Of a stretch of 64,000 nucleotides of DNA, positions 410-49,372 are shown piece after piece. The notes below the pieces were generated by a model. It ran no database searches and had not been told where the DNA came from. It saw only the letters and a list, made by a program, of their open reading frames with translations. Position 1 is the first letter of the stretch; each line of letters starts with the position of its first letter. This DNA comes from Perna viridis (Eukaryota), in contig CM074516.1 in assembly GCA_037379345.1 (NCBI GenBank), forward strand, positions 35,377,626 through 35,441,625. The letters are read 5' to 3'. The translations under genes were made by a program, and so were the position numbers.

Positions 410-2880
410 ATTATAATAAACATAAGAGTAATACATCATAAGGATTCGGAAACAAGCCTACGCTTACGTTAATCTGTCTCCTATCATATGACAAATATAA
501 GCACATTGAATCAGCATGCTCTGATACATTCGTTTTACATATATTAATGCAATAGTGAAATAGAAAAAAATATGTGAAAAGAAGATAGGCATGTAACTTA
601 ATAAAATAAAGAAGGGATATGATGAAATGCATTAGAAAACAACATACAATACTAGTGATAATATACACATCATTTACTTTTTAAAATATAAGATTGCACC
701 TTTAAGAATAATTCAGTATTGTGTTCTGTTGTAAGAGCATCAGACCCGTTTAAAAGAACATTAATATCAATCCGAAAACTCAAAGTTTGGATAGTGTTAA
801 GCCGGATTTCCGAGTATTTGTTGCATTGAAGTTTAAAAAAAGGTTGCTTGTCTCTACTTGGCCACAGGAACATTCCGGACTGGCTACCAGATTATGCCTG
901 AACAGATGTTCGTTGAGAGAGCTGCTGTTCATGTGCAACCTGGCATCCAATGTCAAAGTACGATGGTCGTGTGACATTATTAATACGCGATTAAAATATG
1001 CTCAGTTATCTTGAATTACGAGTGGCTAAGGGCTCATTGCACATTTTGATAATAGACGGTAGGAAATAGTTCTAATAAAAAGACGCCCTTTTACGTATTT
1101 CGGATAAAGGTGTGTGATTGACGCGTAAAATGGATGTGGAAGTCTGACCACGCATTTGGTACCAGGATACTTAAATACTCGGGAGTATCACTGTTTATAA
1201 TTTTATACATCATCACGAGTTTATGTTTTTCCTTCTATCGACGAGTTTTTCCCATCCGGTTTCACGATATAAATTTTCTAACAGTTAAACATTCCAATTC
1301 TGTGCCACCAATTACGATACGCATCGCTTCTATTGGTCTTATTAATTAAAATTTGAATGCCATTGTCCAATACGACATTCCTACATTCGAGAATATACGA
1401 AATATACATTTTCTCGGATGTAAACCGGTCGAGAATCAATCCTAAACGCGAAGAACATTGATCCTAGTGTAAGCTTTTTTAACGATATACTCAATATAGT
1501 CATGCTAAGAAACGTCAGCAGAGAAATAAGCACTCATGTTTTGTGACTAAACACTTCCTGGTGATCAAAATTGTCCATCTGCAGAGGATGTGAACCTGTC
1601 GGATGCGTTTGAATTAAATTGAACATTCATGTATTTTTTCGATGTCTCTTTTCAATGTGGAGTCCTCACTATAACATATAGACTAGTGTGGCCAGCAAAT
1701 AGTTTGATACAGGCATTGACGACGATAACGATATCGTTTATAAAACAAGAAATAATAGAGGTCCAAGTATGGATCCCTGCGGAACACCAGCTACCACTGG
1801 TTCCAAACTTGAAGAACAACCGTTTAAGACAACGCATTGGAATCTTTTAGTTAAATAGCTGCTAAGCCAACACAAAAGATACCCGGTCATACCATACTGT
1901 TGTAACTTATTAATAAGCAATAAACCGTAATGCCAGACACAATCGAAAGCCTTGGAAATGTTACCAAAAAAAAAACACGCAAATATCCTGATCATTGTCC
2001 AAAGCCTGGCCAAACGAATTTGAAATATCGACCAGTTAATTTATAGCTGACTGAATATCTGTGAGTGAATAAACAGTGATGATATTTATTGATATGATTG
2101 TCTCTCAAATTACTGTTAATGTATATATGAAAACAACGTTCCATACATTTTGAAATTATACTGAGAAGTGATATAGGGCGATAGTTCTTGACTTTTCGTG
2201 TATTTCCATTTTTAAATACTGGTGTCATGTTAGCTCTTTTCCACATAGTGGGAAAGAACGACTTCGAAAGTGAAAAATAAAAAAGCTTACACAACGGACT
2301 TCTCAGTTCTGAATTTGCGGCTTTCAAAAATCTCGGGCTAATACATGTATGGTCGGGGCCGGATGCCTTCACAACGCTAAGATTCTTGAGTACATTATCT
2401 ACTTTGGGTTCTGTAATTGCAAATTGATCAATCCATCCCATGATAATTAGAGTCGTCTACATTCGTTTTGCAGAAGGAAGAAGTCGTTGAATTCGTTTGA
2501 TTTGACAGTTTTGTGTCGGCGATAAGGTCATCATTTTTTAAACAACATTGATATTTTGACCGTGTTCCGTGCCAGGTATTTGAATGCATATGTGTCACCA
2601 TGATTTCGTCGATGGGTGGTTATCTTTCAATTAACCTGTAAGTTGATCTTGGTAACTCTGTTGAGCTTACCGCACTTGTAAAGTTACCAAGTTCCGTATA
2701 CGCCTGAATTTCGTACAATCGCTATCACGGTTTTTATGTCGCGCTTAAGAGTGCATATACCTTTTTTTACGAATAAATTTTCTCAGATTATTCGTCAACC
2801 ATTTCGGGTCCGCCTTCCGAACCGGCACCAATTTGTTTTGTATCAACTCGCCACCCGCATTAAAGATGACATTTTACTCT
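410..2880 (-). mobile_element. Degenerate 5'-truncated CR1/L2-group LINE (RT pseudogene)
   Basis: Broken minus-strand ORFs carry RT motifs: KASGPD, WKRANMTPVFK, NYRPISLLS..SKCMER (1992-2441); ISKAFDCVWH, GVPQGSILGPLLFL (1738-2013); C-terminal SPECSCG (780-977). Many frameshifts; ends approximate. Confidence 0.85.
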
Positions 2881-4320: not shown

Positions 4321-4599
4321 CACGAAAGTGCTCCTTATATGTCACGGCAGGGGTAGGCGAAAGAGGATAAGCGATTTTTGACACGTTAAACAAATCGGTT
4401 AACTCTCATGGTGTAGATGATACACCATCACGGTCCAGGAGTTTATGATGAAATCCACAAAACTTCTGTAGAAGTCTACGACAGAACAAAAAAGTTTGCT
4501 TAGTTACGGCAACCTCTAGTATAACGTATATGTTGTGATGTGAAAACTTCATAGGTGCTGAAGGGGTGTTGTCATAGATCAGTTAATTTAAGGCACTGA

Positions 4600-5742
4600 G
4601 CCAGCACTCCACAGTATTGTAGAACTACATAATTTTGGTCTTGTATTCTGATGCTTTGTAACATTTATCACTTTAAAAAATTGTCAAGCATCTGTAAATC
4701 TACATATCTAGAAATAGCTCAAGCCAAGGCCTTCAGGGTGCAGTGAAAATTTTCTGGAAAAAAATACCCACAGCAAATAGGGTTACCATAGAAACCATGC
4801 AAAAATATGCGAAAATTTGCAAAAAAAGTTCATAAAATCAGGTTTAAAAATATCAAATTTCCCGCAAAATATCTTAAATTTTTGCAGGTCCGGGTGTTAA
4901 AAGAATAGGCCTGCAGCAGCGCTAAGCTTGTCGTAAAAGGCGACTAAATAGTGCTCAGAACCCTATCCGGAGGCTAGGGCGCTCTGCCCACAGAGCAACT
5001 GGGATGTGTGCCCCAGGTAATGGAATGGGGTACCCCTGGCGTGTTACATGCTGGGGTTGTCAGGCTACAATACGGAAAACCAGACCGCAAACCATAGTGG
5101 TGCACCGTGTTGGGAAAGATGCCACGTTCCTCGCACGTTAAAGAACCCTACTGTGGTATTCTCCCGGAGTAGGAACCATAGGGCTCCGCCACAGGAGGCC
5201 AAATTGCCCGACCCTACCCATCCCTCCCTATTTCCAGTGGCAATCAAAATTTGTCGACCCCATTGTCCTTGTGTCCCGTCCCTTTTTCATTTCATGTTCA
5301 TTTTATCACCCAAATCATGTTCATCATCTGAATATAGCTGAAATATTGCTGCTCGGACGTTAAACCCCAACAAACAAACAAACAATATTTCATGCCTGAA
5401 AGTGTCCAAACTTTTTCCTTCGATAACCCCTTCCTCATATGAGCATCGCCGGTTAGATTTTGAGCTATTTCACTTCGTAATCCACTTATTAAATTTAGCA
5501 TGGTAAAAAATTAACTTACTTTCACTTCACAATGAAGTCAAATTGTCATTGAAAAATAGCCCCTTTCAAACTGAAAATATATAAAACATTGCAAAATACT
5601 TTGAAGTCTCCCTTTTCAGAAAATGTTTTATCAACAATAGATTCTTCATTTTTAATCACTATAGCTACCACCGGTTTCCATTAATGTCATTTTTCATCTC
5701 TAGCCAAAAGTGCGAAACTAAACTAAACTGTGGAGTGCTGGC
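4600..5742. mobile_element. PIF/Harbinger-like MITE containing a nested SINE-like insertion
   Basis: Perfect 16-bp TIR gccagcactccacagt (4600) / actgtggagtgctggc (5742), flanked by a 3-bp TGA duplication (TNA-type TSD). Confidence 0.8.
4883..5385 (+). mobile_element. SINE-like non-autonomous retroelement with a structured 5' end and an (AAAC)n tail
   Basis: GC-rich island within AT-rich DNA. Contains 5' gaataggcc...gcttgtcgtaaaaggcgactaa, a central gcacgttaaagaaccc motif typical of mollusc SINE central domains, and a 3' end atagctgaaatattgct...ggacgttaaaccccaa(caaa)n. Confidence 0.75.
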
Positions 5743-5903
5743 TGAGGAAGGTCATAAGTTCAATTGCCCATTATATGTTTTACTATAGTATATTAACATC
5801 TTTATCGGTATCTTTGTCTCAGAATGTGACAACTTAAAGAAGGGTCTGAAAAATTCGGGATTTGGACATGCTCTATTTTCAATTCCCTAAAAAGCCTGTC
5901 AAT

Positions 5904-7495
5904 TGTGATCTTGAGTTTAGGAGTCAGATCACGTGATGTTCTGTTTTTATGGTGTGACGTAATAGGCTGGAATGAAAACCAAGTTAACACAATATAACTT
6001 TATTAAAATAGATGTTTCTTGTATGGCGGCCGTTGTCCAAGTGGCCCGAATAATATAATCAAAACAATATGATAATGCATTAGAATAGGTTAATAGCTAA
6101 CATTTATGCATAAATTAAACAATGGGGAATTTAACTCATATTTTGATAAAGTGGGGGAATTTAGCTCATATAATGTTATTAGACAGTGCCAAACAAATAT
6201 TGTGAATTATGAAAACATGGGGCTTCTTTTACTTAAATGTAACTACATGGTTGCCATAGAAACCAAAATGTAAACAATAATGATTGACATATCTAGATAA
6301 AGATTAAATTGAAACTGTCACTAAATTGACATAATAACTACTAAAAACATATATACAACGCGCTGTGATCTAAAGAAAAAGTTAGTAAATGAAATGCAAA
6401 GCGTGCAGCATAATTGAAATTCAAGTTACGCTTAATAAACTATGTTGGTATTGAGCTGCTAAAAAGTATTACATAAGTACAGCTCATTTGTTTAATTTTA
6501 CCTTTAAATGCCTATTTACGGCTGAATTCATAGCTATAAATGAAATGTAACTTTGCCGCTGTTTACAAAATAAAGTTTCAAGTGGAGATAACTCCTACAA
6601 TATATCTTAAAACCAAAGCTTGAACTTGTTGCCAATAAATGCGCATGAACCATAGTAAGTATTGCAAAGTAAGTAATTGAGACAATGATTCAGTAGATTA
6701 TTATAGAACTACATACACATAAGTAAATGTTAAAATGTACACACACATATATGAACACAAATAACAACTGATTGTCATGTGCTAATAAAGATATTCTATT
6801 CAGATAAAGTGCGCTAATTACTGCAAGTTAAAACACTTAAAAATAAGTATCAAAATGTAATTTATACTAAGACATAAATATCTCATATTAACTATTAAAC
6901 ATTCAAATTGTAATATAAAAATTTACTACTTACCTGGAATGAAAACCAAGTTAACACAATATAACTTTATTAAAATAGATGTTTCTTGTATGGCGGCCGT
7001 TGTCCAAGTGGCCGAGTTTACCAAACATAAAGTTATGTTTTCACTCCAGGTGAGGCCCATTGAAGGAAAATAGCTATATACACAAAGAGCAAATATATTA
7101 AAACCCCTTATTGAACCTCTATGAAAAAATATGTGAAAAGCCATTTCATGTCACCTAATCCACCTATGTTAAGTGCTAGGACGCAGTCCTTAATCCGGAT
7201 ATGCTATAATCTTATCCCTGATTTTGTATAGCCTTAATTATACAGTTAATTATCAAGTCTTGGTATCTATTTAGTCTTACGTAAGATATTTACATACTTA
7301 AAACATGTTGGCACTACAGCATTATGTTTCTTTTTAAATATATGTTTATTAAAATACTTGTGAAACAATATTAAGTTTAGGTGACTGGCTTGGACATTAC
7401 AATGTACAAACATGAAAAATATCAAATGAAACAATAAAGAAAAATATATGCATATTATGTACAAGAAGGGATGATGGCTTGTTTTCCCTATCACA
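5904..7495 (-). repeat. 3' LTR (1592 bp = 625-bp LTR + 967-bp extra segment)
   Basis: 5904-6046 and 6934-7495 match the 5' LTR. The 80 bp at 5967-6046 are duplicated at 6934-7013, with 887 unique bp between them. Confidence 0.95.
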
Positions 7496-7510
7496 AATAC
7501 TCCCCTCATT
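7496..7510 (-). promoter_or_regulatory. Polypurine tract
   Basis: Minus strand AATGAGGGGAGTATT abuts the TG start of the 3' LTR. Confidence 0.85.
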
Positions 7511-7742: not shown

Positions 7743-8171
7743 TTATTTGACTACTTGGAAAAAGTTGTTATGCACTATCAATATATAACAAGTAAATGGT
7801 GACTTGAACATGTGTTTTAAGCATCTTGCTTTGATGGGATTTATTGAAATTAGATCAGGTACATGTAAGGTGTGTTTAGTGTGTGTATTTATAATGTTGA
7901 GGCCTGACAATTGAATGTGTAATCTGGTGAAGATGGTGCCGGAGATTCTCATGTTAGAAATATTGTGTGGATTTGATATTTCCCAGTCTAGTTTAGCTTG
8001 TTTGGTAAAGAACACTCCATAGTTAATACGTTGTAAGCTCTCTCTGTCTGTTGACATACCCTCGACCATACTTATTATCATGAGAAGGCAGGCAAATCTT
8101 AGTACTCCTATTGAAAACAAAGATGAAGAAATTTTAAGACGGCAGTGTTTATCGTTTAAGGGAGGATCCAT
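7743..8171 (-). pseudogene. Internally deleted env-like third ORF of the Gypsy element
   Basis: Lies between integrase and PPT. A hydrophobic signal-like stretch (VLRFACLLMIISMVEG) is followed by LQRINYGVFF, then abruptly by unrelated-looking sequence. Far too short for a complete env. Confidence 0.6.
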
Positions 8172-8578
8172 TCCCTAATAGCACTATGGAACATGAGAAC
8201 GAGCTCATAATTTTGACAAACACTACACTAGAAATCCTAGAAGAGAAAAAATGTAAGAAGAGTACATAAGAAGTGCCTTACAATCTCACATCTAACTTGT
8301 AGATCAAATCAGGCATAGAGGAGCAATCAAAAATGAAGTGAAGTTGTTTGCAATTGTTAAATGCAAAATGCTTTAATGTAAAATGAAAACACTTGAAAGT
8401 GAAATGCAAAACACTGTAGTGTGAATTGTAAAATGCTTCTATGTTAACTATAACAATAGACATGTAAAATGAAAAATGATTATCCAGTAAAAATGTGTAA
8501 TGTAAAAATAAATTGTATTCCTATAAATGGCAATATGAAGTTTTCACTATTCCATTTATTTTGCCTTGTGTGTAAGAC

Positions 8579-9750
8579 TCATTTTCTGAAGCAGGGATTT
8601 CTATGTGGACGTTTTCGTTTCCTACCCTGTTGTGTTTTTGTTGCATGGTAATGGGTAATGGTATCCTCTGACAAGTTTTCTGCAGGTTGCCATGATGAAC
8701 CCGTATAACCTTTCCATTTGATGAGGTACTCCTTTTTACCATTGACCGTTTTTGAACGAAGGATTTTTTCTATGGGATATTCCCTGTCATCTATTTGAAC
8801 CGCTGGCTCATTGTTTGTGTTTTCATTTTTGTCTATGTTTTCATTATTGTGTTGTTGCTGTGGTATGTTTGGTTGTACTGGTCTGGGTAATTCTGGACGT
8901 GGGACGTCTGGTCCTGGTGCATTTAAATTTTGTCTGTGATCTGGATCATGGTAATGTTTGAGTCTATTTGCATTGATTAAACTCTTGATTTCTTTGTTTG
9001 TACCACACCTTCGAAGTTTGTAAGTGTAGTTTGGACCCTTGTCAACAATGTAAAATGGTCCATCTTGTTTTTTGTACAGTTTGGATGAGTACCCTACTGG
9101 AACTCTTGGAGTGTAAAGAAGCACTCTGTCATTGATTTTAAAGTCTGGAACTCCTGTGTTTTTGTCATAATGTTGTTTCTGTTGTTGTTGTGCAATGGCT
9201 AAGTTTTCAGTTGCAATTGTTTTGGCAATTTTCAAATTGTTGAGAATGTTGTCAATGTGTTTTTTCAAATTTTTGTTTAGATCTTCTCGTGGAATGAGAT
9301 TTGCATCAAAAAATATGTTCATCTCTTTTCCAAAAACAAGATGATATGGTGAAAATTGTGATGATGCTGATGGTGTCATACGAAATGCCATGAGTACTCC
9401 TGGTAATAACTCAGGCCAGTTGGATTGTGACTCATCTACTACAGTTCGTAAGCATTGTATGATGGTTTTGTTTGTGCGTTCTGCTATGGAGTTTGTTTGT
9501 GGATGGTATGAACTTGTGAAACTATGTTTGACATTGAAAATGTGGTTAACTGCTGCCACAAGTTTGCTCATGAAACCTTGTCCTCTATCAGTGCAAATAG
9601 AGTGTGGACTTCCATAGCGTGTAAAAATTTCTTTGTACATGACTGTAGCAATTTCTTCAGCAGTTTCAGATCTAACAGGATGAGCTTCAACCCATTTACT
9701 GAAAGAATCTACTATGATCAATATAAAGCGATAACCTTGTTTTGTTTCTT
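8579..9750 (-). CDS. pol: Integrase core and C-terminus with GPY/F motif and chromodomain (frameshifted continuation of pol)
   Basis: IVDSFSKWVEA, TDRGQGF, YHPQTNSIAER (DDE core), DGPFYIV, and YPIEKIL...YLIKWKGY..SSWQPAENL (chromodomain). Confidence 0.93.
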
Positions 9751-12648
9751 TTTGAATGGACCAATCAAGTCCATGTGCCATCTTGAAAAGGTGTCTGTGA
9801 TTGGCATTGGTGTCATTGGAACTCTTTTTGAGTGTGGTGGGTACTTTGCTTTTTGACATGGATCACAAGCTTTACAGTAATCTGCTACAGCTTGATACAT
9901 GCCTGGGAAGAAGTATTTTTGCTGTATTGACCTGTATGTGCGATCAAATCCAAAGTGTCCTTGATCATGGTATGCTTTCATAAGATCATTTCGAAGTGTG
10001 CGTGGTAATGCAAGTTGTTTAATGAATCTGTCATGTTTTTGTTTTCCCTTGTACCTTGGTTCATATTGGTGGTACAGGACTCCATCTTGCATGATGTACT
10101 GATTTGCTTCAATTGTGATTTTGCGTGCCATTTTTTCATCATCTGGTAAGTCTTGTGATTTAAGGTATGTGTACAAATGACAAAAGTCTGTACATTCACT
10201 TTGTAGTTTGCCTATGTCAACTGGTATAATGTCTGAAACTGTGACTTCCGCAATTGTTGGTGGTTTTGTTACTGTTGGTTCATTGTAAAGAAATGTCACT
10301 TCAAGTGCATCATTGTCTGTACTGTTCATGGAGTTGACAGTGGGTATGCTATCCTCTGGCTCAGTGACATCAACCTCCCGTGTCTCAGGATAGCTACGCC
10401 TTGAGAGACAGTCAGCAACTACATTGCTTTTGCCCTCTCTGTACAAAATCTCCATATCATACCCTTGTAACAGAACTGACCATCTAGCCAAACGACCAGA
10501 ACTTTGTTTGATGTTGTTAAGAAATTTGAGTGCTCTGTGATCAGTGTAAACTTGGAAATGTTTGCATGCTAAATATACATGGTAGTGTTTTATTCCTTCT
10601 AGGATTGCTAAACATTCATGTTCACTAGCTGACCATTTTCTTTCAGCTTCTGTCATACTTCTACCACCATAAGCTATGACTTTTTCTTGTTTGTTTTCAT
10701 GTAACTGTGAAAGGTAATAGCCGATAGCTGTGCCGCTTGCATCTGTGGTGAGAATGAAGTCTTTGGACATGTCTGGGTATGCTAGTATTGGTGCTGATGT
10801 AAGTGCATGTTTTAATGTGTCAAATGCCGATTGACATTGCTCTGTCCATTGAAATGTAACACTTTCTTTTGTTAAGTTTGTAAGTGGACTTGCAATTTTG
10901 CTGAAACCTTTGACAAACCGCCTGTAATACCCACATAAACCCAGAAAGCTTTTTATGTCCTTTTCATTTTTTGGAACTGGAAAAGATTTTACTGCTTCAA
11001 TTTTTTCATGATCAACTTCAACACCTTGTTTTGATATTTTGTGGCCCAAGTAAATGACATTTTTGCGAGCGAACTGACATTTGCTTGGATTGAGTGTAAG
11101 GTTTGCTGCTATCAATCTATCAAAAACCAGTTGTAAATGTTTTAAATGTTCCTCAAATGTTTTACTGAACAGCAAAATGTCATCAACATAGACTAGTGCA
11201 ATTTGGTAGTTCAGACGATGTAGCACTTGTGTCAGCAGGTGTTGAAATGATGAAGGTGCTGCTGCTAAACCAAATGGTAGACGTTTCCATTGGTATACCC
11301 CACTAGGTGTAACAAAGGCTGATTTTTGTGCAGTAGCTGGATCTAATGGACATTGCCAATAGCCTGACAACAGATCCAGTGTGCTGAATATCTGAGCCTG
11401 GGAACGCCCTAGGGAGTCTAGCACATCTTCAATGCGTGGCAGTGGAAAAAATTTTGGCTTTGTAACTTTGTTCAGTGCACGAAAATCACAGCAAAATCTA
11501 AGTTCACCATTTTTCTTTTTGCACATTACCACTGGAGCTGCCCACTCACTGTTTGACTCTTCAATTATGTCATGTTTTAGCATTTTTTCTAGCTGTTTGT
11601 TCATTGTATCTAAGACTGCTGGTGATTGTCTGTAAAATCTTTTTCTGATTGGTGTTGCATCTCCTGTATCTATTGTGTGTTTGTATAGATCAGTTAAACC
11701 TAATTCAGTTAGATCTCTTGCAAATGCTTTTCTGTTTTTGTGTAAAAATGCTAAAAGCAATGTTTTTTGTTCTTCTGTCAAGTCTGAGTGGCTCAAGTCA
11801 AAATCTAAACATGGTTGATCTTCGGTATGATTCATGGTACATGTAGTGTGTTGGTTTTCATCATTTGGTGGGTCTTGTAATGGTGTGATTGAATTGGATT
11901 CAACTTGACAGACTGATGCAACAACTACATTTGCTGGTAAATGTATGTTTTTCTTTGTTGGGTTCATGATCCTGATGCATGAGTCACCCGTTTCATCTAG
12001 TTTGACTAAGCATTTTGCGCCTGCGAGTGATTGTGTTGGTAGGTTTTGTAAAGGTTCTAGAAGTGCAATGGTATTCTTGAGATGTGACACTTTAATTGGT
12101 ATATCAACTTGATGCATTGGTTTGATTTTCATGTGTCTTTTTGTTCTAGCTAAGCCACTGTCTAATGCAATAGAGTGTGTGATTGGAATTTCTTCACTGT
12201 CTGGTTCTGGGATGTGTAAAGTATGTGTTGGACAATCAATGTTTGCTCTGTGTTTTGTTAAAAAGTCAAATCCAAGAATCAGACTCTGTTGCATTTTTGG
12301 AAAAACATGAAACTTGTATATGAAGGACATGTGTCCTATGTTGAAAGACAAAAGTATGAGACCTATGATTGAATGATGTTCACCTCCTACACCTACAGCA
12401 TCTTGAACGTGGCATTTTTGTATTTGTGAGAGGTCAAAATTTAAAGATTTGAGAAGGTTGAGGGAACAACAACTGATGGTCGCTCCTGTGTCAACTAATG
12501 CCTTAACATTTTGACCTTTGACAGTGATGTGTACTGAATTGCCCCTTAATGCTGAGATTTGTAAAACATGATTTGAATTTGAGATGATTTCTTTGTTCAA
12601 AGATTTTGTAATGTTAGTCTGTTTTGTGATTTGCCTTTTTCTGACTAG
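9718..12648 (-). CDS. pol: Pol: aspartic protease, RT, RNase H and integrase zinc finger
   Basis: ALVDTGA (protease); LPFGL and YVDD (RT); TTDAS...EHECLAI...TDH (RNase H); H..GH...C..CQ (integrase HHCC). The frame is open back to the gag stop codon. Confidence 0.97.
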   Translation of the reverse strand, partial: LVRKRQITKQTNITKSLNKEIISNSNHVLQISALRGNSVHITVKGQNVKALVDTGATISCCSLNLLKSLNFDLSQIQKCHVQDAVGVGGEHHSIIGLILLSFNIGHMSFIYKFHVFPKMQQSLILGFDFLTKHRANIDCPTHTLHIPEPDSEEIPITHSIALDSGLARTKRHMKIKPMHQVDIPIKVSHLKNTIALLEPLQNLPTQSLAGAKCLVKLDETGDSCIRIMNPTKKNIHLPANVVVASVCQVESNSITPLQDPPNDENQHTTCTMNHTEDQPCLDFDLSHSDLTEEQKTLLLAFLHKNRKAFARDLTELGLTDLYKHTIDTGDATPIRKRFYRQSPAVLDTMNKQLEKMLKHDIIEESNSEWAAPVVMCKKKNGELRFCCDFRALNKVTKPKFFPLPRIEDVLDSLGRSQAQIFSTLDLLSGYWQCPLDPATAQKSAFVTPSGVYQWKRLPFGLAAAPSSFQHLLTQVLHRLNYQIALVYVDDILLFSKTFEEHLKHLQLVFDRLIAANLTLNPSKCQFARKNVIYLGHKISKQGVEVDHEKIEAVKSFPVPKNEKDIKSFLGLCGYYRRFVKGFSKIASPLTNLTKESVTFQWTEQCQSAFDTLKHALTSAPILAYPDMSKDFILTTDASGTAIGYYLSQLHENKQEKVIAYGGRSMTEAERKWSASEHECLAILEGIKHYHVYLACKHFQVYTDHRALKFLNNIKQSSGRLARWSVLLQGYDMEILYREGKSNVVADCLSRRSYPETREVDVTEPEDSIPTVNSMNSTDNDALEVTFLYNEPTVTKPPTIAEVTVSDIIPVDIGKLQSECTDFCHLYTYLKSQDLPDDEKMARKITIEANQYIMQDGVLYHQYEPRYKGKQKHDRFIKQLALPRTLRNDLMKAYHDQGHFGFDRTYRSIQQKYFFPGMYQAVADYCKACDPCQKAKYPPHSKRVPMTPMPITDTFSRWHMDLIGPFKKKQNKVIALY

Positions 12649-13749
12649 TCAATTTTGGTTTTGTTGATTTTGTTGTTGTTCTCGTTCTCTTTGCCAGCAT
12701 ACCTCTTTGTAATGACCTAATTTTTCACAATGACGACATTTAACATTGAATGCAGGACACTTTCTCCTATCCCTTACATGCGACTTACCACAGTAGATGC
12801 ACTTTGATTGTGACTGCTGTCCTGACCTGTCTTGACCCCTTGACCGGTACTGTCCCTTTTTTTCATGTGAAAATGCCATCACCTCTTCTTTAAATGCAGA
12901 TCGAATACCTTCTACAATGGAAGAACATAAATCATTAATAGAAGTAGCATTGGAAGTATTGTTCGTACATGTATTTTGTGCTGCTTGATGCTGAACGGTC
13001 ATATTTACTGGTACAGGTGTTGCTGGTGAACACTCTGCCACACTTGTTGCTAACTGTATAGCTTGTCTAAGCTGGTTCATGGTTTTGGGATCTTTTCCCA
13101 CAACAAACGGTTTAATATTGTGCTGCAATCCATGAACTGTTAAACCTATAATTGTTTCTTCACTCATATTTTGCACTCCATTTTGTAAGTTTTGGACACG
13201 TGTTAAATATTGTATCCCAGTCTCATGTGGATATTGCTGCAACCTATCCAGCTCAGTGTTGGTATTTCTTTGTTTAAATCTCTCTAGAAAGGAGGCTTTT
13301 AAAAGATCAATGTCCTTTTTCGTTCCCTCAGGCAACGAATGGTACCAGGTTAATGCCTGACCCTGAATGTGAAATGGAAAAGAGGCTGCTGCAGCCGGTT
13401 TATCATGACCATTTATTTGTATATAATTTTCAAACATGGTCCACCACAGTGATGGGACTTGGGTGGTCTCGTCATGAAAATGTTGTAGAATTATATGCGC
13501 CATATTTCGCCTTCTTAAATTATTAATGACTTGGAGATTAGAATTTGTGTTACTGATACCACTTGATTCTGACTCTACAGGAGTAGGTTGACTAATCTGT
13601 CTAGACTGTTGCTGTTGGTCCAGTGAATCTGTAATTTCTTCGAGTAATTGGTCAACTGGATCCTGGGTCTCCTGGGCTGTTTGACTTCTGGTTTTGATGA
13701 AGTTAGTTGGTGTGGCCCCCTGTTTAGCACTGCCTTGATTTCTTGACAT
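12649..13749 (-). CDS. gag: Gag with C-terminal zinc knuckles
   Basis: ATG about 36 bp after the PBS start; capsid-like ALTWYHSL...SFLERF; CIYCGKSH...C and CRHCEKLGHYKEVC knuckles. Confidence 0.95.
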   Translation of the reverse strand: MSRNQGSAKQGATPTNFIKTRSQTAQETQDPVDQLLEEITDSLDQQQQSRQISQPTPVESESSGISNTNSNLQVINNLRRRNMAHIILQHFHDETTQVPSLWWTMFENYIQINGHDKPAAAASFPFHIQGQALTWYHSLPEGTKKDIDLLKASFLERFKQRNTNTELDRLQQYPHETGIQYLTRVQNLQNGVQNMSEETIIGLTVHGLQHNIKPFVVGKDPKTMNQLRQAIQLATSVAECSPATPVPVNMTVQHQAAQNTCTNNTSNATSINDLCSSIVEGIRSAFKEEVMAFSHEKKGQYRSRGQDRSGQQSQSKCIYCGKSHVRDRRKCPAFNVKCRHCEKLGHYKEVCWQREREQQQNQQNQN

Positions 13750-13769
13750 GTAGAGCGTCGTACAGGAAT

Positions 13770-13785
13770 CACGGGTTCTCTACCA
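13770..13785 (-). promoter_or_regulatory. Primer binding site
   Basis: TGGTAGAGAACCCGTG begins 2 nt after the 5' LTR. It resembles the initiator-Met PBS (TGGTAGCAGAG) with a gap; the priming tRNA is uncertain. Confidence 0.7.
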
Positions 13786-13787
13786 TT

Positions 13788-14412
13788 TGTGATCTTGAGT
13801 TTAGGAGTCAGATCACGTGATGTTCTGTTTTTATGGTGTGACGTAATAGGCTGGAATGAAAACCAAGTTAACACAATATAACTTTATTAAAATAGATGTT
13901 TCTTGTATGGCGGCCGTTGTCCAAGTGGCCGAGTTTACCAAACATAAAGTTATGTTTTCACTCCAGGTGAGGCCCATTGAAGGAAAATAGCTATATACAC
14001 AAAGAGCAAATATATTAAAACCCCTTATTGAACCTCTATGAAAAAATATGTGAAAAGCCATTTCATGTCACCTAATCCACCTATGTTAAGTGCTAGGACG
14101 CAGTCCTTAATCCGGATATGCTATAATCTTATCCCTGATTTTGTATAGCCTTAATTATACAGTTAATTATCAAGTCTTGGTATCTATTTAGTCTTACGTA
14201 AGATATTTACATACTTAAAACATGTTGGCACTACAGCATTATGTTTCTTTTTAAATATATGTTTATTAAAATACTTGTGAAACAATATTAAGTTTAGGTG
14301 ACTGGCTTGGACATTACAATGTACAAACATGAAAAATATCAAATGAAACAATAAAGAAAAATATATGCATATTATGTACAAGAAGGGATGATGGCTTGTT
14401 TTCCCTATCACA
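13788..14412 (-). repeat. 5' LTR (625 bp)
   Basis: TGTGATAG...GATCACA termini, internal AATAAA, and a match to the 3' LTR minus its 967-bp segment. Confidence 0.96.
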
Positions 14413-15375
14413 CAATTACTCTTCTGTAATGTGTGATTTTCTAAGAATTTACATCTATAAGGTCTTTGTTTTTACATTAGCCCTAGTTAAACAGTTCTCT
14501 AACAAAGGAGAATAGAACTGCACTATGGAAAAAATTCCCATTTACAGTCATGTACTCAACGAAAAACATTCGAAATTTCTAATGAAACAAAAATACCGGT
14601 TTATAAAGGACTTTAATGCTATATCCATCCATTGGTATCGACTCACTCACAATTAACACTTTAAAATATATTTCAACTAAATATTGTATCAAACAATGTT
14701 ATCTAATTCTAAATATTCACATACATTTGTAGCCTGAAAAAATGTTTCCTTAGACAAAAACTGTATACTTGATTTGCAGCTGTATAAAATATATCAAGAG
14801 GAATTGCCAGTATCATTTGCTTTCAGAACCAACATAACGTGTATGTACATTCAGCACTTCAAAACACTGTCATTAACTTTTCTTTATAATCATTATTTGT
14901 ATATACATATATATATAAGATCTGTCTTACATGAACTGGAAAGTGTTGATTTTATCCAAAAAAAAAAAAAATTGCTGGGTCAAAGATTCAGCAAATCCTG
15001 TAGGTTATACAATGCTGTATATAGCGTGCATATTTTATGAATGAACGTTGTCACATGAAAACTTATTTCCCCCCGAATACACAATGACCCACTTTGATGA
15101 TTTACTCCGTGCGTGAGAGACCCCAAACGATAGCCAATGACATTAAGAAACTCCTCAGTCCGTCATACATTACACATGTGTGCAAACCGGGTTTAACAGT
15201 ATTGAGTATATATGTTAGCACGAAAACGAAAATTAAACCAAGTATAGGAACAGTCAGCTGTTTGTCAGCGTCAGTCATATCGTGCAAATGATTGGCTAAC
15301 ACTGTGTTACGAAAGATTTTTGGGGGTTTTAGTGGTTTATATCCAAAAAGACAGTCGAATTATGTCCTAGAAGAT

Positions 15376-17450: not shown

Positions 17451-18239
17451 TAGCAATATGTAATAAGTACCTCAGTAATTCAACTTTCAAGTTTAGTTTA
17501 TTCTTGTGTTGAGGTCATCTTTAAGTTACAAAATACAGATACATACAGGAGTGAAACGAAACCATTGGAATTTGTTATGGTTATCTGAAGTAGCGGCAGT
17601 ATGCTGCGTTTTAATACTGCTGTTACAGTAATTATTTAGCAGAGCTTTTTACGGCAATCAACTAAGTAGAGTAGTGTTAAAGTATAATTCGCTGAAGTTT
17701 TTCTTTATGTATTTATGATATAGTGGTGGTACCAAGCTCAAGCCAGCGAACAATAAGGCAGTAAACAATAAGAAAGCGCGAGAAAACTCCAATATCTAAA
17801 AACCATAAAACGTAACAAGCCCACAACGGACTTTGCCATTTTATTTCAAATTATTATCATTGGATTATTTCGTATTAAAATTGTTGACACTATTGCGTTT
17901 ATGCACGTATTTCTAATGCATTCCAAATTGCTTTATAGAAACTGAAATGGAAAACTTTTTGAATAAAATTTTGAATATCTTCATAGACGTAAGATATTTG
18001 TTGTCATGCTGATATGATTAATTAACTAATTTTGGACCCTGGTTTAGGGTCCGATTTGTAAATGTCTGGATCTGACATTGATAACTCTGTCAACTTCAAT
18101 TATAGAACTCAATTCAGTTAATTACATAAAGACAGAATAATGTTAAAAATAAACAATTCCCCTTCTATATATATATACAAAAATAAATTATATGCCTTTT
18201 TGTAAAAACACACAAACAAAAACGTACAAACAAACTTGG

Positions 18240-19420
18240 AATTTCCAGTTTTGGGTGAATGGTTCATATGCACATCCTGGAAATTTAGAAGTGAGCAAAC
18301 CGGTATTGTGACTAACTACCCATGAATGGCATGTAAAAACTTTGCCGTAGGAGTTTTTTATAACACCTTGAAGACGGGTCCCCTACATGACGTTTTTTCC
18401 CAACTTTGAATTCCATGTTAGGGAGAACAGTCCAATTGCACACCCTGAAAATTTGGTGGTGAACTAATCGGTATGGTGACTAACGAACCCTGAATGGTCT
18501 GTAAATGCTTTGCCGTAGTATACTTTTACGACACCTTGAAGAGGGGTCTCCCTCATGAGTTGCTTTGCAACTTCGAATTTCTTGTTTGGGAAAACGGTTC
18601 GTATACTCACCCTGGAAATTTGGTGGTGAACTAATCGGTATGGTAACTAACTTACCCTACAAGGCCTGTAAAGGTTTTGCCGTAGGAATTTTTATATAAC
18701 ACCTTGAAGAGCGGTCCCCTACATGACGTTTTCTCTTAACTTAGAATTCCCTGTTCGGGACAACGGTTCATATGCACACCCTGGAAATTTGGTGGTGAAC
18801 TTTCATGCCATTTGTGGTCAGGTTATCTCACTACCGGTTAGTTTATCTCCAGATTTCTAGGATCCATATTAACCTGGAAGCCCGGGTAAAATTTTCGTTC
18901 CACATATTTCTCTCAAATATAACCCCGGGTCATCAGTGACGTCTTCTGTCTCTTGATTGGCTGAACGAATTTGACTTTATTTTATTCACTTAAATACGTT
19001 TTAATATTTAAATTTAAAGAAAATTACGTTTAAATATTTTTTTTTCAAATTAATGATAGCGTCTTTTGATAATTGCACAATTACAGAGTTAATTTAGATA
19101 ATCTAATCTTTGTTTTTATTTTATTTCATAAGCGGCAATTTACTCATATATTGCACATATCCGTCGCTGGTGACCTGAGTCTATATTTTAGCGATCCTAG
19201 GTTCGCTTATGATATTGACCAGGGGACCAGATTAGGATCCATATATGAACTGCTCAGAGAAAGTTTCAAATTTGGCAGTTTATTTTACTCAAAGGATCCC
19301 TTTTCAAGTAGTTATAAAATATTTCGTAGCCTTAAGCTTTAGTGGTAAATTAAGGGTTGAGTTAGTTAATTGCCAAATTTCTAGGATCCGCATAAAGATC
19401 GTTTCCCCAGAAGTGGAACA
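18240..19420. repeat. About 168-bp tandem repeat (about 3.3 units) followed by inverted partial units
   Basis: Units begin near 18261, 18429, 18596 and 18764 (cac.ccctggaaattt...tttgccgtag...acaccttgaaga). 18803-18863 is the reverse complement of the unit, and further inverted fragments run to about 19420. Confidence 0.85.
18870..19234. mobile_element. Non-autonomous DNA transposon with a 10-bp TSD (AcademH-like)
   Basis: Ends taacctgg...ccagatta (imperfect TIR), flanked by GGATCCATAT at 18860-18869 and 19235-19244. The superfamily is inferred from TSD length and termini. Confidence 0.7.
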
Positions 19421-19907
19421 CCCCCCTTTTCCCCAATACACACACCTTATTTTTCTCATTCTAGTCATGAATTAACTATTTGTAGAAATGTTTTTGAGGA
19501 GCGTATATAAACAGTGACGGGTGACGGGTATTTATTTATTTATATTTCGTTTATTTTTTTCTATTTTGTTTGTGTTAATTGACAAAAAGGGATGGAATTT
19601 ATTCTTGTATCTATATGTTTTATATCTATATAGAAGTGGAAGTGCTTATTTTCAACAATATTCTCTCTTTATGTAACTGATTTGTGCTATTAAATTAACG
19701 GAGGTATTAATCTCAGATCTACAAATGGTAGCCCTAAAAAGTTTTACATGTATACACATGTGAAAGTGAGGCTCAACAAGATGGACGTTTGTTTTTTTCT
19801 CGGTGAAAATTTATAGTGTAAACATGGATTTATTATAACATCTAGACTTTTATTGTGATAAAAGAAAATATCAGAAGAATTGAAAGGTATATTTGCACCG
19901 ATTATTT

Positions 19908-20747
19908 ATGCCGAGACACAAAAATCAGCCCAATCAAAGGCCTAGGTACAGTACATCAGATTCAGATAGTGATTATTATCGGCCTACACCAAAACGAATG
20001 AACACTAAATCTTACTCATATTCCTGTCCTAAGCCTATTAATTTAACAATGTCGACAACATCCGATACAACATCTACCCAGTCGGATCAAACTGTTTCCA
20101 CTGCTGACCTTTATAAACTAATGTTGACAGTAAAACAAAATCAAGATTCCCTGAGAACGTCACTCGAACAGAGAATTTCAAATTTAGAGACAAAATTTAC
20201 AAACGAAATAAAGATGAGCATGAAAACACTAAAAGATGAAATGACTTTAGAATTTGCTCAAGTTGACAACAAAATAAAGGAACTGGAAACTAAAATGTCA
20301 AATTATGAAAGTAAACAACAAGAAATAAACAATGATCTACCGTCTGTTAGTATGAAAAATGTTCAGCCAAAACTTGTATTTAGAAACATTAAATCTGAAG
20401 GATTAAATACTGATAGCCTGGAGACGTATGTTAACGGAATACTAAGATCAATTGGATTAGAGTTTAGTGTAGTTAGCGCTCAGCAGATCGGTAATCCGAA
20501 TAACGGAAGAGTAAACAATACACAACGTCCGAAACCAGTTCTTGTTACTTTCGGAGATGAAAATCAACGTGTTGATGTCCTTAAGAACAAACGAAAACTA
20601 AAAGACATAAATGATTACAAAAATATCTACATAGAAACAGATCGTACACGACAAGAACGCATCAACGACGCTAATTTGAGACAGATAATCAAATCAATTC
20701 CAGAACTTCAATTTCGAGGCGGGCGTGTAACCGTGAAGCAAAATTAA
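19908..20747 (+). CDS. LINE ORF1p (coiled coil plus RRM-like domain)
   Basis: Heptad-rich centre; RPKPVLVTF...VLKNKRKLK...IYIETDRTRQER. First ATG at 19908. Confidence 0.9.
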   Translation: MPRHKNQPNQRPRYSTSDSDSDYYRPTPKRMNTKSYSYSCPKPINLTMSTTSDTTSTQSDQTVSTADLYKLMLTVKQNQDSLRTSLEQRISNLETKFTNEIKMSMKTLKDEMTLEFAQVDNKIKELETKMSNYESKQQEINNDLPSVSMKNVQPKLVFRNIKSEGLNTDSLETYVNGILRSIGLEFSVVSAQQIGNPNNGRVNNTQRPKPVLVTFGDENQRVDVLKNKRKLKDINDYKNIYIETDRTRQERINDANLRQIIKSIPELQFRGGRVTVKQN

Positions 20748-23700
20748 CAGTTAAGCCAGTCAAATAGTAACGATGCCGAATTAAGACTGGCTTGTTGGAA
20801 TTGTAATGGTTGGTATGTGACACGACAAAACGATGATAGTAGGGAATTACGAGAAAGTATTTTAACTGCATTAAACTACGATATAGTTGGACTTTGCGAA
20901 AGTCACTTGAGAAATGATCAGACTATTAATTTGGAAGGTTATCATTGTATTGGAAACAATGGAAAACAAATTTCGAACAACGCATGGCGTGGTAGTGGAG
21001 GTATTGGTTTTTTAATTAAAAACTCGCTATATGACAGTTTTGAAGTAAACATTCTAGACGATAGTAGAGATGACATTTTATGGATTTATTTAAAAAACAA
21101 AGATGACCCAGAGCTAACTTTATATTTATGCGTGTGTTATCTACAACCCGAGCGATCGAGTAGAGGTAAAATTGCTCAAGAATTCTATGACTGTCTTTTA
21201 TCTCAGATGTATCTTTATAGTACAGGTTGTCCGATTTTCATTTGCGGTGATTTCAATGAACGAGTTGGAAATCTCCAAGATTTTAATGATTCATTAGACT
21301 ATTTGCCAAAACGTATTCCTATTGACGAAACAAGAAACGCATTTGGTGACTATTTGCTAGACTTCTTGAAGGACTCTAACTGCTGTATGCTAAACGGACG
21401 TGGTGATTACTCGAAAGACAATTTTACGTTTGTTTCACCCATCGGGAAATCAGTAGTTGACTATATGATTGTCCCATATACAGTACTTCCGAATGTTTGT
21501 AACTTTGAAGTAAAACTGATTTCGTCTCTGATAATTGAAAATGGTGTTCAACTTTCGACGAATACACGATTACCGGATCACTCTATACTTACCTGTTCAT
21601 TTAGAATCTCAGAATATGATCAACTCAACAAGAACATATTAGATACAACCGAAAACGTCACTGATACTACGAATATAAAATATCAATCAACACGTAAATA
21701 TAATGTTTCAAAGACTTATTTACCAGTGAACGATGCATGCGATGTCTCGAAAATGTTATCGACTCTTTACTCGATATCCGCAATATTGACGATAGAATTA
21801 ACACTATATACGAATCATTCATTGAAGCTATTCATCATGAAATGGACAACAAGGTTGACTACAAAGACTATACACCAAGTTCGAACAACGTAAACGACGA
21901 AATGCTAAACCATACTGGAACAATGATTTACGAGACTTATTGATAGAAACAAAGCTGAGAAAAAATACCTACAATTTAAAAGAGACAGACGGATTAAAAA
22001 TGAACTGAAAAACACGTTTAAAATAAAGAGAAGACAATTTGATAAACGTCTACGACAAGAAGAACGTAAATATGTGGCTCAAAGACTTGATAATATTAAA
22101 ACGTTTAACCAGAAGAACCCGAAAGAATTTTGGCGGGAAGTAAACAAACTTGGACCCGGGAAAGATACAAAAACAATTAATAGCGTGATAATGGGTGACG
22201 GTAGTGTTTCTCATAACCCAAACGATATTCTGTCTAGATGGAAACAGGAATACGCGAAACTTTTTTCTGGTGATATTCAGAATGTGGACAATGATTTTTT
22301 TGAACAATTAGAACAATTAAACACACAGTTAGAACAAGAATTTGAAAGTTTGAACCATACAAATGAAACGATTGATACTGAACAACAAAGTATAAACGAT
22401 CCTATATCGATTGAAGATGTTAAACGTGCGGTACATGGTTTAAAGAATGGTAAAGCAGTCGGAGTCGACAATGTTCCAAATGAAATTTTGAAAAGTGACA
22501 AACTAACCAACATTCTTCATGAACTATATAATGTTTGTTTTTCACATGGAATAGTACCTGATATGTGGTGCCAAAGTATCATCTGTCCGATTTTAAAGAA
22601 TGGAAAGGACTACCGTGATCCATTAGGATACAGAGGAATTAGTCTTACGTCAACTGTCGCTAAAGTATTTAGTCAAATAATGAATGAAAGACTTGTTAGA
22701 TATCTTGAGAACAATAATCTATTGAGTGAAGAGCAAAACGGATTTAGGTGTCTCAGATCATGTCTGGATCATATTTATTCCTTGTGTACAATTTTGCGTA
22801 ATAGAAAACTAATGAACTGTGATACTTTCTTGTGTTTCGTAGACTTTAGCAAAGCCTTCGACTCGGTCAACCATACTATTTTATGGAATAAACTTTTAAG
22901 TTCAGGTATACATGGAAATATGTTCAATACTATCAGATGTCTTTATTCGAAACTGAAAACTGCTGTCCGCTTGTCTCCCGGGATTCTCACCGATTGGTTC
23001 TCAGTTGATACAGGAGTACGCCAAGGCGATAATCTTGCTCCTACGCTCTTTGCGTTATTCATTGACTGTTTAGTACCACAAATTAACAATTTATCATGCG
23101 GCGTTCAAGTTGGAAAGGATATGATAAGCTGCTTACTTTATGCGGATGATATTGTGTTTATCTCTGATAGTCCATACGGTCTGCAACGCCAACTTGACGT
23201 CTTACATGAGTGGACAAAATTAAACTGTTTACATGTGAATATTGATAAAACAAAGATTATGCATGTTCGTAAAACAACAACTGACAGATGTGATTTCTCG
23301 TTTATGCTTGGTAATACAGCAATTTACTTCGTTGATAGATATCGCTATCTTGGTTTAACAGTCTCTGAAAATATAGACTACAACATATCTGTAAAAGAAC
23401 TCCCAGTTGCGGCTAGCAGGGCACTTGGATCATTAACCTCCAAATATCTTCATATGGGTAACATGGACTATGCTACATTCGCAAAGATATACGATAATAC
23501 TGTCATCCCCGTAATGGACTATGCGTCAGGCGTTTGGGGTTTGAAACGATATGATGTATTAGAAAGACTTCAGTATCGGGCTATTCGTACTTTCTTAGGT
23601 GTTGGGAAAACCTCACCGATTCCAGCAATAACGGGTGATATTGGATGGACTCCAGTACACATAAACAATCAGTGTAACGCAATTAGATTGTGGTGTAGAC

Positions 23701-24332
23701 TTATGAACTTACCGGAATCCAGAATTTGTCGAAAAGTGTTTAGTTGGGATGTTGAGATTTCGGCACGATACAAAAATACATGGTTTAATAGTGTTAAAAC
23801 AATTTTGAACAATAGTGGTCTGGCAAATTTACTTAATCATACAGACAATCAAGACTTGATATCGACAAAGTACATTATTGACTCAGTAAAGACTACACTT
23901 ATAGACAATTTCAAAATCGAGTGGAATACAAAAGTTCAAGACATGCCAAAACTTAGAACATATAAGCTATTTAAGACCGATTTTAGTACTGAAGCGTATG
24001 TGAAAAACTGTTTATCGAGGAAACAGCGATCAGTTATTGCCAGAATACGATGCGGGACACTATCATTAGAAGTGGAACAAGGCCGCTATCGCAATATTCC
24101 GTTAGACCGTAGATTCTGCAAAGTGTGTAACTCTAACCTCATTGAAGACGAAAACCACCTCCTACTTTTGTGCTCTGGTTACGCAATTAGGCGAAATGAA
24201 CTTATACAACAACTGTCTTCCATAAATTTTGACTCTCCTTTAGATGCGCTAAAAAAACTGCTGACGAATAATTCCAAAATTGTTGCAAACTATATCATAG
24301 ACTGTTTAGATATACGACGTGGTGTTATATAA
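20748..24332 (+). pseudogene. LINE ORF2: APE endonuclease, RT and CCHC motif, with frameshifts in the linker (about 21710-21950)
   Basis: LRLACWNCNG, GLCESHL, ICGDFN, SVVDY and PDH (APE); VDFSKAFD, GVRQGD and LLYADD (RT); CKVC...EDENH...C at the C-terminus. Confidence 0.93.
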
Positions 24333-48099: not shown

Positions 48100-49110
48100 A
48101 TACGATGTAATAGCCATGATACCATATCCAGGTGACAACGGAGATATTAAAGAACTACTATTTTAGCAATTTGTTCGCGACCTCGGAAATCTGTGGTTTC
48201 TTAATGATCCGTCATTGTATTTCAGCAAGAGTTTCAACGGTTGAGAGAATTAAACGACGAAGCGGATTGAGACGACGGCAAAACCGCAGCGATCTCGTAT
48301 TAGTCGCTCAGAAAATATATGAAGTCCGGAGAGAAGGTCATATAAATCTTGGATATAGGTTTTCATGGAGACTTTTGAATACACGCCACCACCTCTCTGT
48401 CAGTCAGGAAACCGTGAGGCACTTGTTGCGAATGATAGATGGAGAAGGTGTTAATTTGAGAACAAGACATCTATTACACAGGAGGACTTACTTCAACAGA
48501 GGACCAAATTTTCTTGTACACATAGACGGTTATGAAAAATTAAAACCGTTTGGAATTGCAGTTCATGGTGCTATTGATGGATTTTCCTGCAAAATATTAT
48601 GGCTACACGCTGGACCTTCTAACAACAATCCAAGGTATATTGCGAAGTATTTTTTAGATTTTATCCGAGAAAGGAGGTGTTTGCCGCGTGCAATACGTTC
48701 TGATCATGGTACCGAGAATGTATTGATTAGAGATCTAAAGATGGCGTTGAGATTTAATCATCACGATGACATGTCCGAATCTTTTTATTTGGAAGATCTA
48801 CTGAAAAATACATTGAAGGATATGCCTGATGCTGGTGATTTTTCTCCTAGCAACCCACTACATATAGAATGTGTTCGTTTTTTGTTTTCTTCTCCTCATG
48901 CAATCTCAATTACAGACATTTATGGATATTTGGAATTCTTACCGAATAAGACCACAAAGAAGACTAGGAGAAAGCCTGCGGGCATTCCAAATGTACTTTA
49001 CTGTCAACCACAGATGTATAACTGTGCATACTATTCGTTTGCTCTTCCATGTAATTTACAATCTATAGATGCTCTTAGCAGGGATTATTCAGATGATATG
49101 CCGGTTTTGA
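48100..49110 (+). pseudogene. IS3/IS481-like (IS3EU-type) eukaryotic DDE transposase, decayed
   Basis: HTH-like N-terminus; LGYR...VSQETVR; GPNFLVHIDGYEKLKPFGIAVHGAIDGFS; PRAIRSDHGTEN; frameshifted WNSYRIR. The region around the third catalytic residue looks deleted. Confidence 0.8.
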
Positions 49111-49267
49111 ACAAAACATTGTCGAATACTCAAACTTTGTCTCCTATAGAAATAATGCCAGGCTTTCCTGAGCGCTTACCAAAATTTCTACCACAGCCAA
49201 ACTTTTTACATAGGACCCTATATGAAAGCCAGGTGAACGCTAGATTTGGCTACTTATTTCGGTTTGT

Positions 49268-49372
49268 ATGAATATGAGTACCAACAACTGGAAATGAAAC
49301 AACTGGGTCGATGCCCCTTCTGGTGGACCAGAAGTCCCGAGGGTATTCTCAAGCCCAGTTATCAGACTCGTC
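49268..49372 (+). ncRNA. Degenerate type I hammerhead-ribozyme-like motif
   Basis: atATGAG-tacc-aacaact-ggaaat-GAAAC-aactggg...cccagtt-ATC. Stem III is perfect, but the CUGA box and stem II are mutated. Confidence 0.35.

What the first reader, a model, noticed from the sequence alone, without database searches (positions are those of the whole stretch)
5967..6933. Asymmetric LTR: a 967-bp GT-AG intron-like segment in the 3' LTR that splices back exactly to the 5' LTR
Seen: on the element's sense (minus) strand the 3' LTR reads ...ttcattccag|GTAAGTAG-(887 unique AT-rich nt in total)-[80-nt duplicate of LTR sequence ending ttggttttcattcCAG]|cctatt. The extra segment starts with a perfect donor (CAG|GTAAGT) and ends with a pyrimidine-rich CAG acceptor supplied by the duplication. 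Removing it gives exactly the 625-bp 5' LTR. The duplicated 80 nt contain the LTR's AATAAA. Established: reverse transcription normally makes both LTRs identical, and these otherwise look identical. Inference, three options: (a) an introner-like insertion in which the insert brings the GT and an unusually long target duplication supplies the AG; (b) the family's native LTR has an intron after R, and strong-stop DNA from a spliced 5' end jumped onto an unspliced, extended 3' end (ggcc(c)ga microhomology sits at the junction), giving U3-R-X-R-U5; (c) both LTRs had the segment and one lost it by recombination between the 80-bp repeats.
Basis: partly seen in the sequence, partly recalled or inferred. 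Interest (0 to 1): 0.85.

Follow-up and report, generated by a model that had tools for sequence, protein, structure and literature searches.

The report
Retrotransposon end carrying captured intron-like DNA
A very young mussel retrotransposon has 887 extra bases in one of its two terminal repeats, probably a piece of a host intron picked up by a copying error; it is a one-off accident, notable mainly because its edges fall on splice signals.

Summary
The structure is real. A minus-strand Ty3/gypsy element (chromodomain integrase, internally deleted F-type env; host probably a mytilid mussel) has a 625-bp 5' LTR A-B-C and a 3' end A-B-X-B-C (482/80/887/80/63 nt). All shared parts are 100% identical, with ATTG target duplication, PBS and PPT. 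That removal restores the 5' LTR is automatic for any insert plus direct repeat. The informative part is the CAG|GTAAGT join (1 in 110,982 background positions). X is unique in the window, has no ORF or terminal inverted repeats, and holds an inner TACTAAC-pyrimidine-YAG acceptor 564-571 nt after the GT. That suggests host intron RNA, and argues against clean 967-nt splicing. Best reading (0.5): strong-stop DNA jumped onto host intron RNA, copied it to its 5' splice site and returned to R. The 5' LTR then came from a normal co-packaged genome or lost X-B by repeat loop-out. Both steps have precedents. Boldest reading (0.15): a DNA fossil of an intron whose two ends were joined (host donor, cryptic LTR acceptor). 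Introner and native-LTR-intron readings are unsupported. The source of X, splicing and assembly could not be checked: no host genome or reads. Interest 0.4.

The parts
13788..14412 (-). 5' LTR, 625 nt, TG..CA, segments A(482)-B(80)-C(63)
14413..14416 (-). Target-site duplication ATTG (5' side)
13774..13785 (-). Primer-binding site, 2 nt after the LTR; its reverse complement equals the 12-nt PBS listed for an annelid F-env errantivirus (assigned there to tRNA-Ala with 2 mismatches)
12649..13779 (-). gag ORF (376 aa stop to stop), Retrotrans_gag
9718..12648 (-). pol part 1: protease, RT, RNase H, integrase zinc finger; 83% identical to a Mytilus coruscus protein over RT-RNase H
8579..9862 (-). 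pol part 2: integrase core and chromodomain, in another frame (frameshift near 9750)
7743..8174 (-). env remnant: N-terminal piece joined in frame to the last ~80 aa of a ~780-840 aa F-type env; the middle is missing. Acceptor-like site upstream at 8237
7500..7507 (-). Polypurine tract
7014..7495 (-). Segment A of the 3' LTR (U3-like, 482 nt), identical to the 5' LTR
6934..7013 (-). B, first copy (80 nt, R-like by inference): 5' hairpin, AATAAA at 6971, U/G-rich tract, ends in CAG
6047..6933 (-). X, 887-nt unique AT-rich insert starting GTAAGT and ending with an extra G before B; no ORF over 51 codons on the sense strand, no TIR
6363..6387 (-). Inner branch point TACTAAC, pyrimidine tract, TAG (6370) and CAG (6363): competing 3' splice site
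5967..6046 (-). B, second copy, 80/80 identical; supplies the acceptor-like CAG
5904..5966 (-). Segment C (63 nt, U5-like), ends CA
5900..5903 (-). Target-site duplication ATTG (3' side)

Best explanation
A single reverse-transcription accident in the particle that made this copy. (1) Minus-strand strong-stop DNA (copy of C and B) missed the 3' R and jumped onto a co-packaged host RNA X. The extra G at X|B may be a copied cap, which would make the B start the transcription start. (2) RT copied X back to its 5' splice site, either because the RNA ended there (excised or debranched intron, or intron-plus-exon intermediate) or because the exon end CAG offered microhomology. (3) RT returned to element RNA at the B end and finished, giving a minus strand with A-B-X-B-C. 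(4) The 5' LTR came from plus-strand strong-stop DNA of a normal co-packaged genome, or X-B was looped out during plus-strand transfer or soon after. Shown: the anatomy, identity, TSD and motifs. Inferred: all four steps, B = R, and the host-intron origin of X. The product is a passive scar that could be partly spliced in 3'-LTR transcripts; no function is implied.
For: The duplicated piece holds AATAAA and a 5' hairpin, where R is expected. LTR parts differ at 0 of 625 sites and B copies at 0 of 80, so insertion and integration are close in time. Matching TSDs tie both ends to one integration. X starts exactly at GTAAGT (26 of 110,982 background positions). It holds a same-strand TACTAAC + pyrimidines + YAG: 6 of 3000 shuffles and 1 of 122 background tiles; with CTRAY 227 of 3000 and 10 of 122. 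Precedents (passages read): completed strong-stop DNA transferring to a wrong site in HIV (PMC12657518); 24 of 88 HIV proviruses with intact 5' and defective 3' LTR, modelled by plus-strand transfer between genomes (PMC9278108); double template switch capturing host RNA in metazoan LTR elements (PMC5131818); Ty1/Ty3 plus-strand transfer through R-U5 pairing (PMC5371799).
Against: The source of X was not found, so host-intron origin and microhomology are unverified. R boundaries are unmapped: an Inr-like TCATTC at the B end with AATAAA about 31 nt upstream would also fit a start near the B end. The B end lies 32 nt past AATAAA with no poly(A) remnant, so it is not obviously the RNA 3' end. The published captures replace internal ORFs with mRNA pieces, and the published asymmetric LTRs are deletions, not insertions. 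At least two non-homologous jumps plus an asymmetry step are needed. X's T>A skew (-0.15) is matched by about 10% of 488 windows, so it is weak. Cap copying is recalled; one search found 0 papers and one search gave only listings.
Confidence: 0.5

Rival explanations
1. Joined intron ends in cis. A parent copy lay sense inside a host intron. The host donor (GTAAGT) was spliced to the cryptic acceptor at the end of B, the intron's 3' end was joined to its 5' end (spliceosomal intron circle, or an end-to-end RT jump), and RT copied across that AG|GT junction.
For: Explains both halves of CAG|GTAAGT, co-packaging and the missing poly(A). The B end is the top-scoring of 27 scored LTR AGs by a crude score, and as good as 71 of 110,982 background positions (21 with a branch-like motif). 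Full-length circles joining 3'ss to 5'ss are reported in yeast, human and Entamoeba (PMC11146597).
Against: Circles are rare. The pyrimidine richness of the B end is also expected downstream of a poly(A) signal, and two other LTR AGs score only one point lower. The inner acceptor at 6370/6363 should compete. It needs an unseen donor locus and still needs the X|B junction and the asymmetry step.
Confidence: 0.15
2. Post-integration insertion at DNA level: break repair or LINE target-primed reverse transcription patched X (from host DNA or intron RNA) into the 3' LTR with an 80-bp staggered duplication.
For: Explains the asymmetry in one step. LINE-like RT sequences occur in the window. LINE chimeras with splice-site junctions are described (10.1101/2025.02.02.635956, passages).
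Against: It must hit the R-like 80 nt within the short time allowed by 0/625 divergence. There is no poly(A) tail, and TSDs in the passages read were 16-17 bp.
Confidence: 0.14
3. Inherited LTR variant: a parent already had A-B-X-B-C, and this copy's 5' LTR lost X-B by splicing or by recombination between B repeats.
For: The structure is heritable in principle, because strong-stop DNA can land on the second B (inference). Splicing and B-B recombination give the same 5' LTR.
Against: B copies are 80/80 identical, so the variant is young, not native. It only moves the origin back one cycle. No second family copy is in the window.
Confidence: 0.1
4. Assembly artefact (chimeric join or collapsed haplotypes).
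For: No reads were available. The integrase frameshift lies beside an A-run, as an indel error might.
Against: Matching TSDs; perfect LTR identity shows high base accuracy; the B|X junction is not a repeat boundary an assembler would choose, and it falls on a splice motif.
Confidence: 0.07
5. Introner-like mobile intron that brings GT and takes AG from an 80-bp target duplication.
For: Same logic as introner families that carry the 5' site and co-opt the 3' site from the TSD (10.1101/2022.06.06.494994).
Against: No TIR (12/30 end match); single copy in the window (best Smith-Waterman score 36 vs 35-52 in 8 shuffles); known TSDs 3-8 bp; inner acceptor.
Confidence: 0.04

Closest known systems
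LTR-mediated retroposition by double template switch (PMC5131818; retroviral capture of cellular RNA)
   Same: Foreign unique sequence fused inside an LTR element that has both integration ends; two junctions with element sequence
   Different: The capture sits in the R-like part of the 3' LTR and duplicates it instead of replacing ORFs; the cargo is intron-like, not mRNA; microsimilarity could not be tested
[quoted passage not shown]
   Same: Intact 5' LTR with abnormal 3' LTR; junction at the presumed R start
   Different: Those are deletions; here an insertion with R-like duplication in an invertebrate germ-line element
Full-length spliceosomal intron circles (PMC11146597)
   Same: Junction of a 3'ss-like end directly to a 5'ss
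   Different: Seen there as RNA; here a DNA junction whose RNA origin is unproven
Introners (10.1101/2022.06.06.494994; PMC11282704)
   Same: Insert supplies GT, duplicated target supplies AG, removal restores the target
   Different: No family, no TIR, 80-bp repeat instead of 3-8 bp
Chromodomain-bearing F-env Ty3/gypsy errantiviruses of Cnidaria, Mollusca and Annelida (PMC13524379)
   Same: gag-pol(chromodomain)-env order, F-type env relatives, same 12-nt PBS as one annelid element
   Different: This copy has a deleted env and a frameshifted integrase; no tree was built

Membership tests
Ty3/gypsy LTR retrotransposon | LTRs with TG..CA, TSD, PBS, PPT | tested here: met
Ty3/gypsy LTR retrotransposon | pol order PR-RT-RH-IN | tested here: met
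F-env errantivirus, chromodomain clade | env ORF after pol related to F-type fusogens; chromodomain on integrase | tested here: met
   Remnant matches 27 proteins; 3 of 8 scanned carry Baculo_F; Chromo E=1.8e-08
F-env errantivirus, chromodomain clade | Placement in that clade on an RT/IN tree | not tested
   No tree built; reference sequences were not in the supplement rows seen
Introner | Multiple similar introns at unrelated loci | tested here: inconclusive
   One copy in 64 kb; genome unavailable
Introner | Short TSD and/or TIR (not universal) | tested here: not met
   No TIR; repeat is 80 bp
Spliceosomal intron (967 nt) | GT donor, branch point, pyrimidine tract, AG | tested here: met
   Motifs present, but an inner competing acceptor exists
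Spliceosomal intron (967 nt) | Removed from RNA | not testable with these tools
   No RNA data
LTR-mediated retroposition | Insert maps to a host transcript, with microsimilarity at switch points | not testable with these tools
   No host genome; X absent from window, GTDB (one 21-mer), phages, plasmids
Reverse-transcribed intron circle | Both junction halves are the true ends of one host intron | not testable with these tools
   Needs X's source locus and RNA

The most novel reading that the evidence does not exclude
The AG|GTAAGT junction is a genomic fossil of an intron whose 3' and 5' ends were joined (intron circle, or end-to-end jump), copied by an LTR retrotransposon RT. This would be a route by which LTR elements write spliceosome-cut intron ends into DNA and create a new, precisely removable intron.
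Probability: 0.15. Interest if true: 0.75.

Novelty: new variant of a known kind. Interest (0 to 1): 0.4.

Why it matters
If X is host intron RNA captured at first-strand transfer, it is a natural germ-line example of excised-intron sequence re-entering a genome through an LTR element, and it shows one way a ready-made donor plus a duplicated acceptor can form a new intron. That bears on the open question of RNA-mediated intron gain. It also shows that LTR symmetry, used for dating and annotation, can fail at birth in invertebrate elements. As it stands it is a single copy with an unverified source, so it is a lead for a genome-wide screen (U3-R-X-R-U5 copies; do the X's start with GT?) rather than a new system.

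Tried and rejected
Source of X: no significant second match in the window (BLAST; Smith-Waterman 36 vs 35-52 in 8 shuffles); one 21-mer gave 0 matches in GTDB genome contigs; no match in phages or plasmids; Rfam gave 0 at gathering score for the window and 3 sub-threshold hits, E 0.5-0.7, around the LTR. No tRNA genes in the window. Looking for family copies with flanks: 1 locus of 312 candidates (L001, 40% identity, unrelated repeats), uninformative. Host gene context: 6 Mytilus proteins matched only one exon at about 29.5-29.9 kb, so I could not tell whether the element lies in an intron. The env remnant gave nothing by word search or ESM Atlas and was found only by full HMMER. The shuffle test used criteria that the inner acceptor itself does not meet (branch distance, AG exclusion), so its counts (2 and 16 of 2000) were dropped and the test redone with criteria set after seeing the site. 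T>A skew of X: weak, not used. No folding or complex jobs were run; they do not bear on the question.

Full report
Observation. The structure is as described. On the minus strand the 5' LTR is 14412-13788 (625 nt) and the 3' end is A(7495-7014)-B(7013-6934)-X(6933-6047)-B(6046-5967)-C(5966-5904). Shared parts are identical: 562/562, 143/143 and 80/80. Both ends have TG..CA and the 4-nt duplication ATTG, the PBS follows the 5' LTR after 2 nt, and a purine run precedes the 3' LTR. Zero differences in 625 sites bound LTR divergence below about 0.5% (95%), so the copy is very young.

The element. Pfam finds gag, protease, RT, RNase H, integrase and a chromodomain. The best RT-RNase H hit is Mytilus coruscus at 83%, and a host exon at about 29.5-29.9 kb hits only Mytilus proteins (6 of 15 candidates), so the host is probably a mytilid (inference). 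A 143-aa ORF after pol joins the N-terminus of an env to its last ~80 aa; 3 of 8 relatives scanned carry Baculo_F. Integrase is frameshifted near 9750. [quoted passage not shown] No tree was built.

What is and is not surprising. Deleting an insert plus one copy of a flanking direct repeat always restores the target, so 'splices back exactly' carries no weight by itself. The weight is in the junction. GTAAGT occurs 26 times and CAGGTAAGT once in 110,982 background positions; allowing four end/orientation chances gives about 1 in 1000 for the donor, post hoc. The B end is a fair acceptor: best of 27 scored LTR AGs by one point, and as good as 71 background positions, 21 with a branch-like motif. 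U-richness is also expected after AATAAA, which weakens this. LTR asymmetry is not rare: 26 of 88 HIV proviruses, 24 with the 5' LTR intact (PMC9278108, passages).

What X is. It is 72.7% AT, has no sense-strand ORF over 51 codons and no TIR, and has no second copy in the window or match in the prokaryotic collections tried. It carries TACTAAC at 6387, eight pyrimidines, then TAG (6370) and CAG (6363). A site like this appears in 6 of 3000 shuffles and 1 of 122 background tiles; relaxed to YNCTRAC, 26 of 3000 and 2 of 122; relaxed to CTRAY, 227 of 3000 and 10 of 122 (criteria set after seeing it). This moderately supports a sense-strand host pre-mRNA origin (a 564-571 nt intron plus about 320 non-coding nt, or a cryptic site in a longer intron). 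It also predicts that 3'-LTR transcripts may splice to this site and not restore the LTR. At the other junction X ends TATTC-G|GGCC where the LTR has AACTC|GGCC. An extra G at a pyrimidine/purine boundary in front of a hairpin fits cap copying at the RNA 5' end (recalled; one search found no paper, listings only), but could equally belong to X.

Mechanism. I favour an aberrant first-strand transfer onto host intron RNA, return to the element at the B end, and a 5' LTR supplied by a normal genome or by X-B loop-out (0.5). A simple jump alone would put X in both LTRs, because the 5' LTR is copied from plus-strand strong-stop DNA, so a second step is required. Precedents, all from passages: misdirected transfer of completed strong-stop DNA (PMC12657518); plus-strand transfer between genomes (PMC9278108; the review PMC12789967 notes reports that second transfer is intramolecular); R-U5-mediated plus transfer in Ty1/Ty3 (PMC5371799); host RNA capture with microsimilarity at 25 of 29 junctions (PMC5131818). 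Reading through a lariat branch would join the GT to the branch adenosine, not to the AG (inference; PMC5399748 passages describe RT pausing at branches), so an ordinary lariat read-through does not fit.

Rivals. Joined intron ends in cis (0.15) explains CAG and GTAAGT together; such circles are documented but rare (PMC11146597: outline, first part of Discussion and passages). It needs a donor copy inside X's intron. DNA-level or LINE-mediated patching (0.14) explains asymmetry in one step but not the position or the 80-bp repeat. An inherited variant (0.1) only defers the origin. Artefact (0.07) is untested. Introner (0.04) matches in logic (10.1101/2022.06.06.494994 and PMC11282704, passages) but not in TSD length, TIRs or copy number so far.

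Novelty. Each step is known. I found no report of an LTR element with a duplicated R flanking an intron-like capture, or of a reverse-transcribed spliceosomal intron circle, in the listings (titles and abstract starts only; one search listed 25 of 4,358; older subscription papers are not held). I recall early retroviral work on LTR-associated cell-derived inserts in unintegrated DNA that may be a direct precedent; it was not read. Verdict: new variant of a known kind, single event, interest 0.4; 0.75 if the joined-intron-ends reading (probability 0.15) holds. The deciding data, X's source locus and reads, were not available.

Noticed in passing
window 7743-8174 (-): env remnant with a large in-frame internal deletion, an acceptor-like site at 8237 and a run of about 20 A starting at its stop codon; a copy with deleted env and frameshifted integrase but identical LTRs may have been mobilised in trans, or the frameshift is recent or a sequencing error
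   Followed up: partly
window 12649-12651 (-): gag and pol are in the same frame separated by a single TGA; expression mode (read-through or frameshift) not examined
   Followed up: no
window 6250-6263 and 4782-4795: The only two RFX X-box-like palindromes (motif recalled) in the window: one inside X, one about 1.1 kb beyond the 3' LTR
   Followed up: partly
window 13888-13854 (-): AATAAA lies about 31 nt upstream of an Inr-like TCATTC, the spacing of a TATA box; an alternative transcription start near the B end
   Followed up: partly
window 6124-6178: 25-nt imperfect tandem duplication (84%) inside X
   Followed up: no
window 29531-29908 (-): Cysteine-rich exon matching Mytilus proteins, several with Ig and Roc/COR-type domains, at 45-55%; no other exon of those proteins found in the window
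   Followed up: partly
window 19884-24332 (+): LINE-like element: ORF1-like, endonuclease and RT in three open frames; a decayed LINE-like fragment also at about 700-2456 (-)
   Followed up: no
window 48120-49271 (+): ORF with rva_4 integrase-core domain
   Followed up: no
window 4596-4638 and 5704-5746: 43-nt inverted repeat (74%) enclosing about 1.1 kb just beyond the 3' LTR, possibly an old non-autonomous DNA element
   Followed up: no
window 18233-18801, 52202-52514, 55380-55571, 61417-62036: Several ~170-nt satellite-like arrays and a 48-nt array with open frames
   Followed up: no
L001:4204-9447: A contig of a bacterial MAG holds an LTR-retrotransposon-like RT between ~90% identical direct repeats, probably eukaryotic contamination
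   Followed up: no
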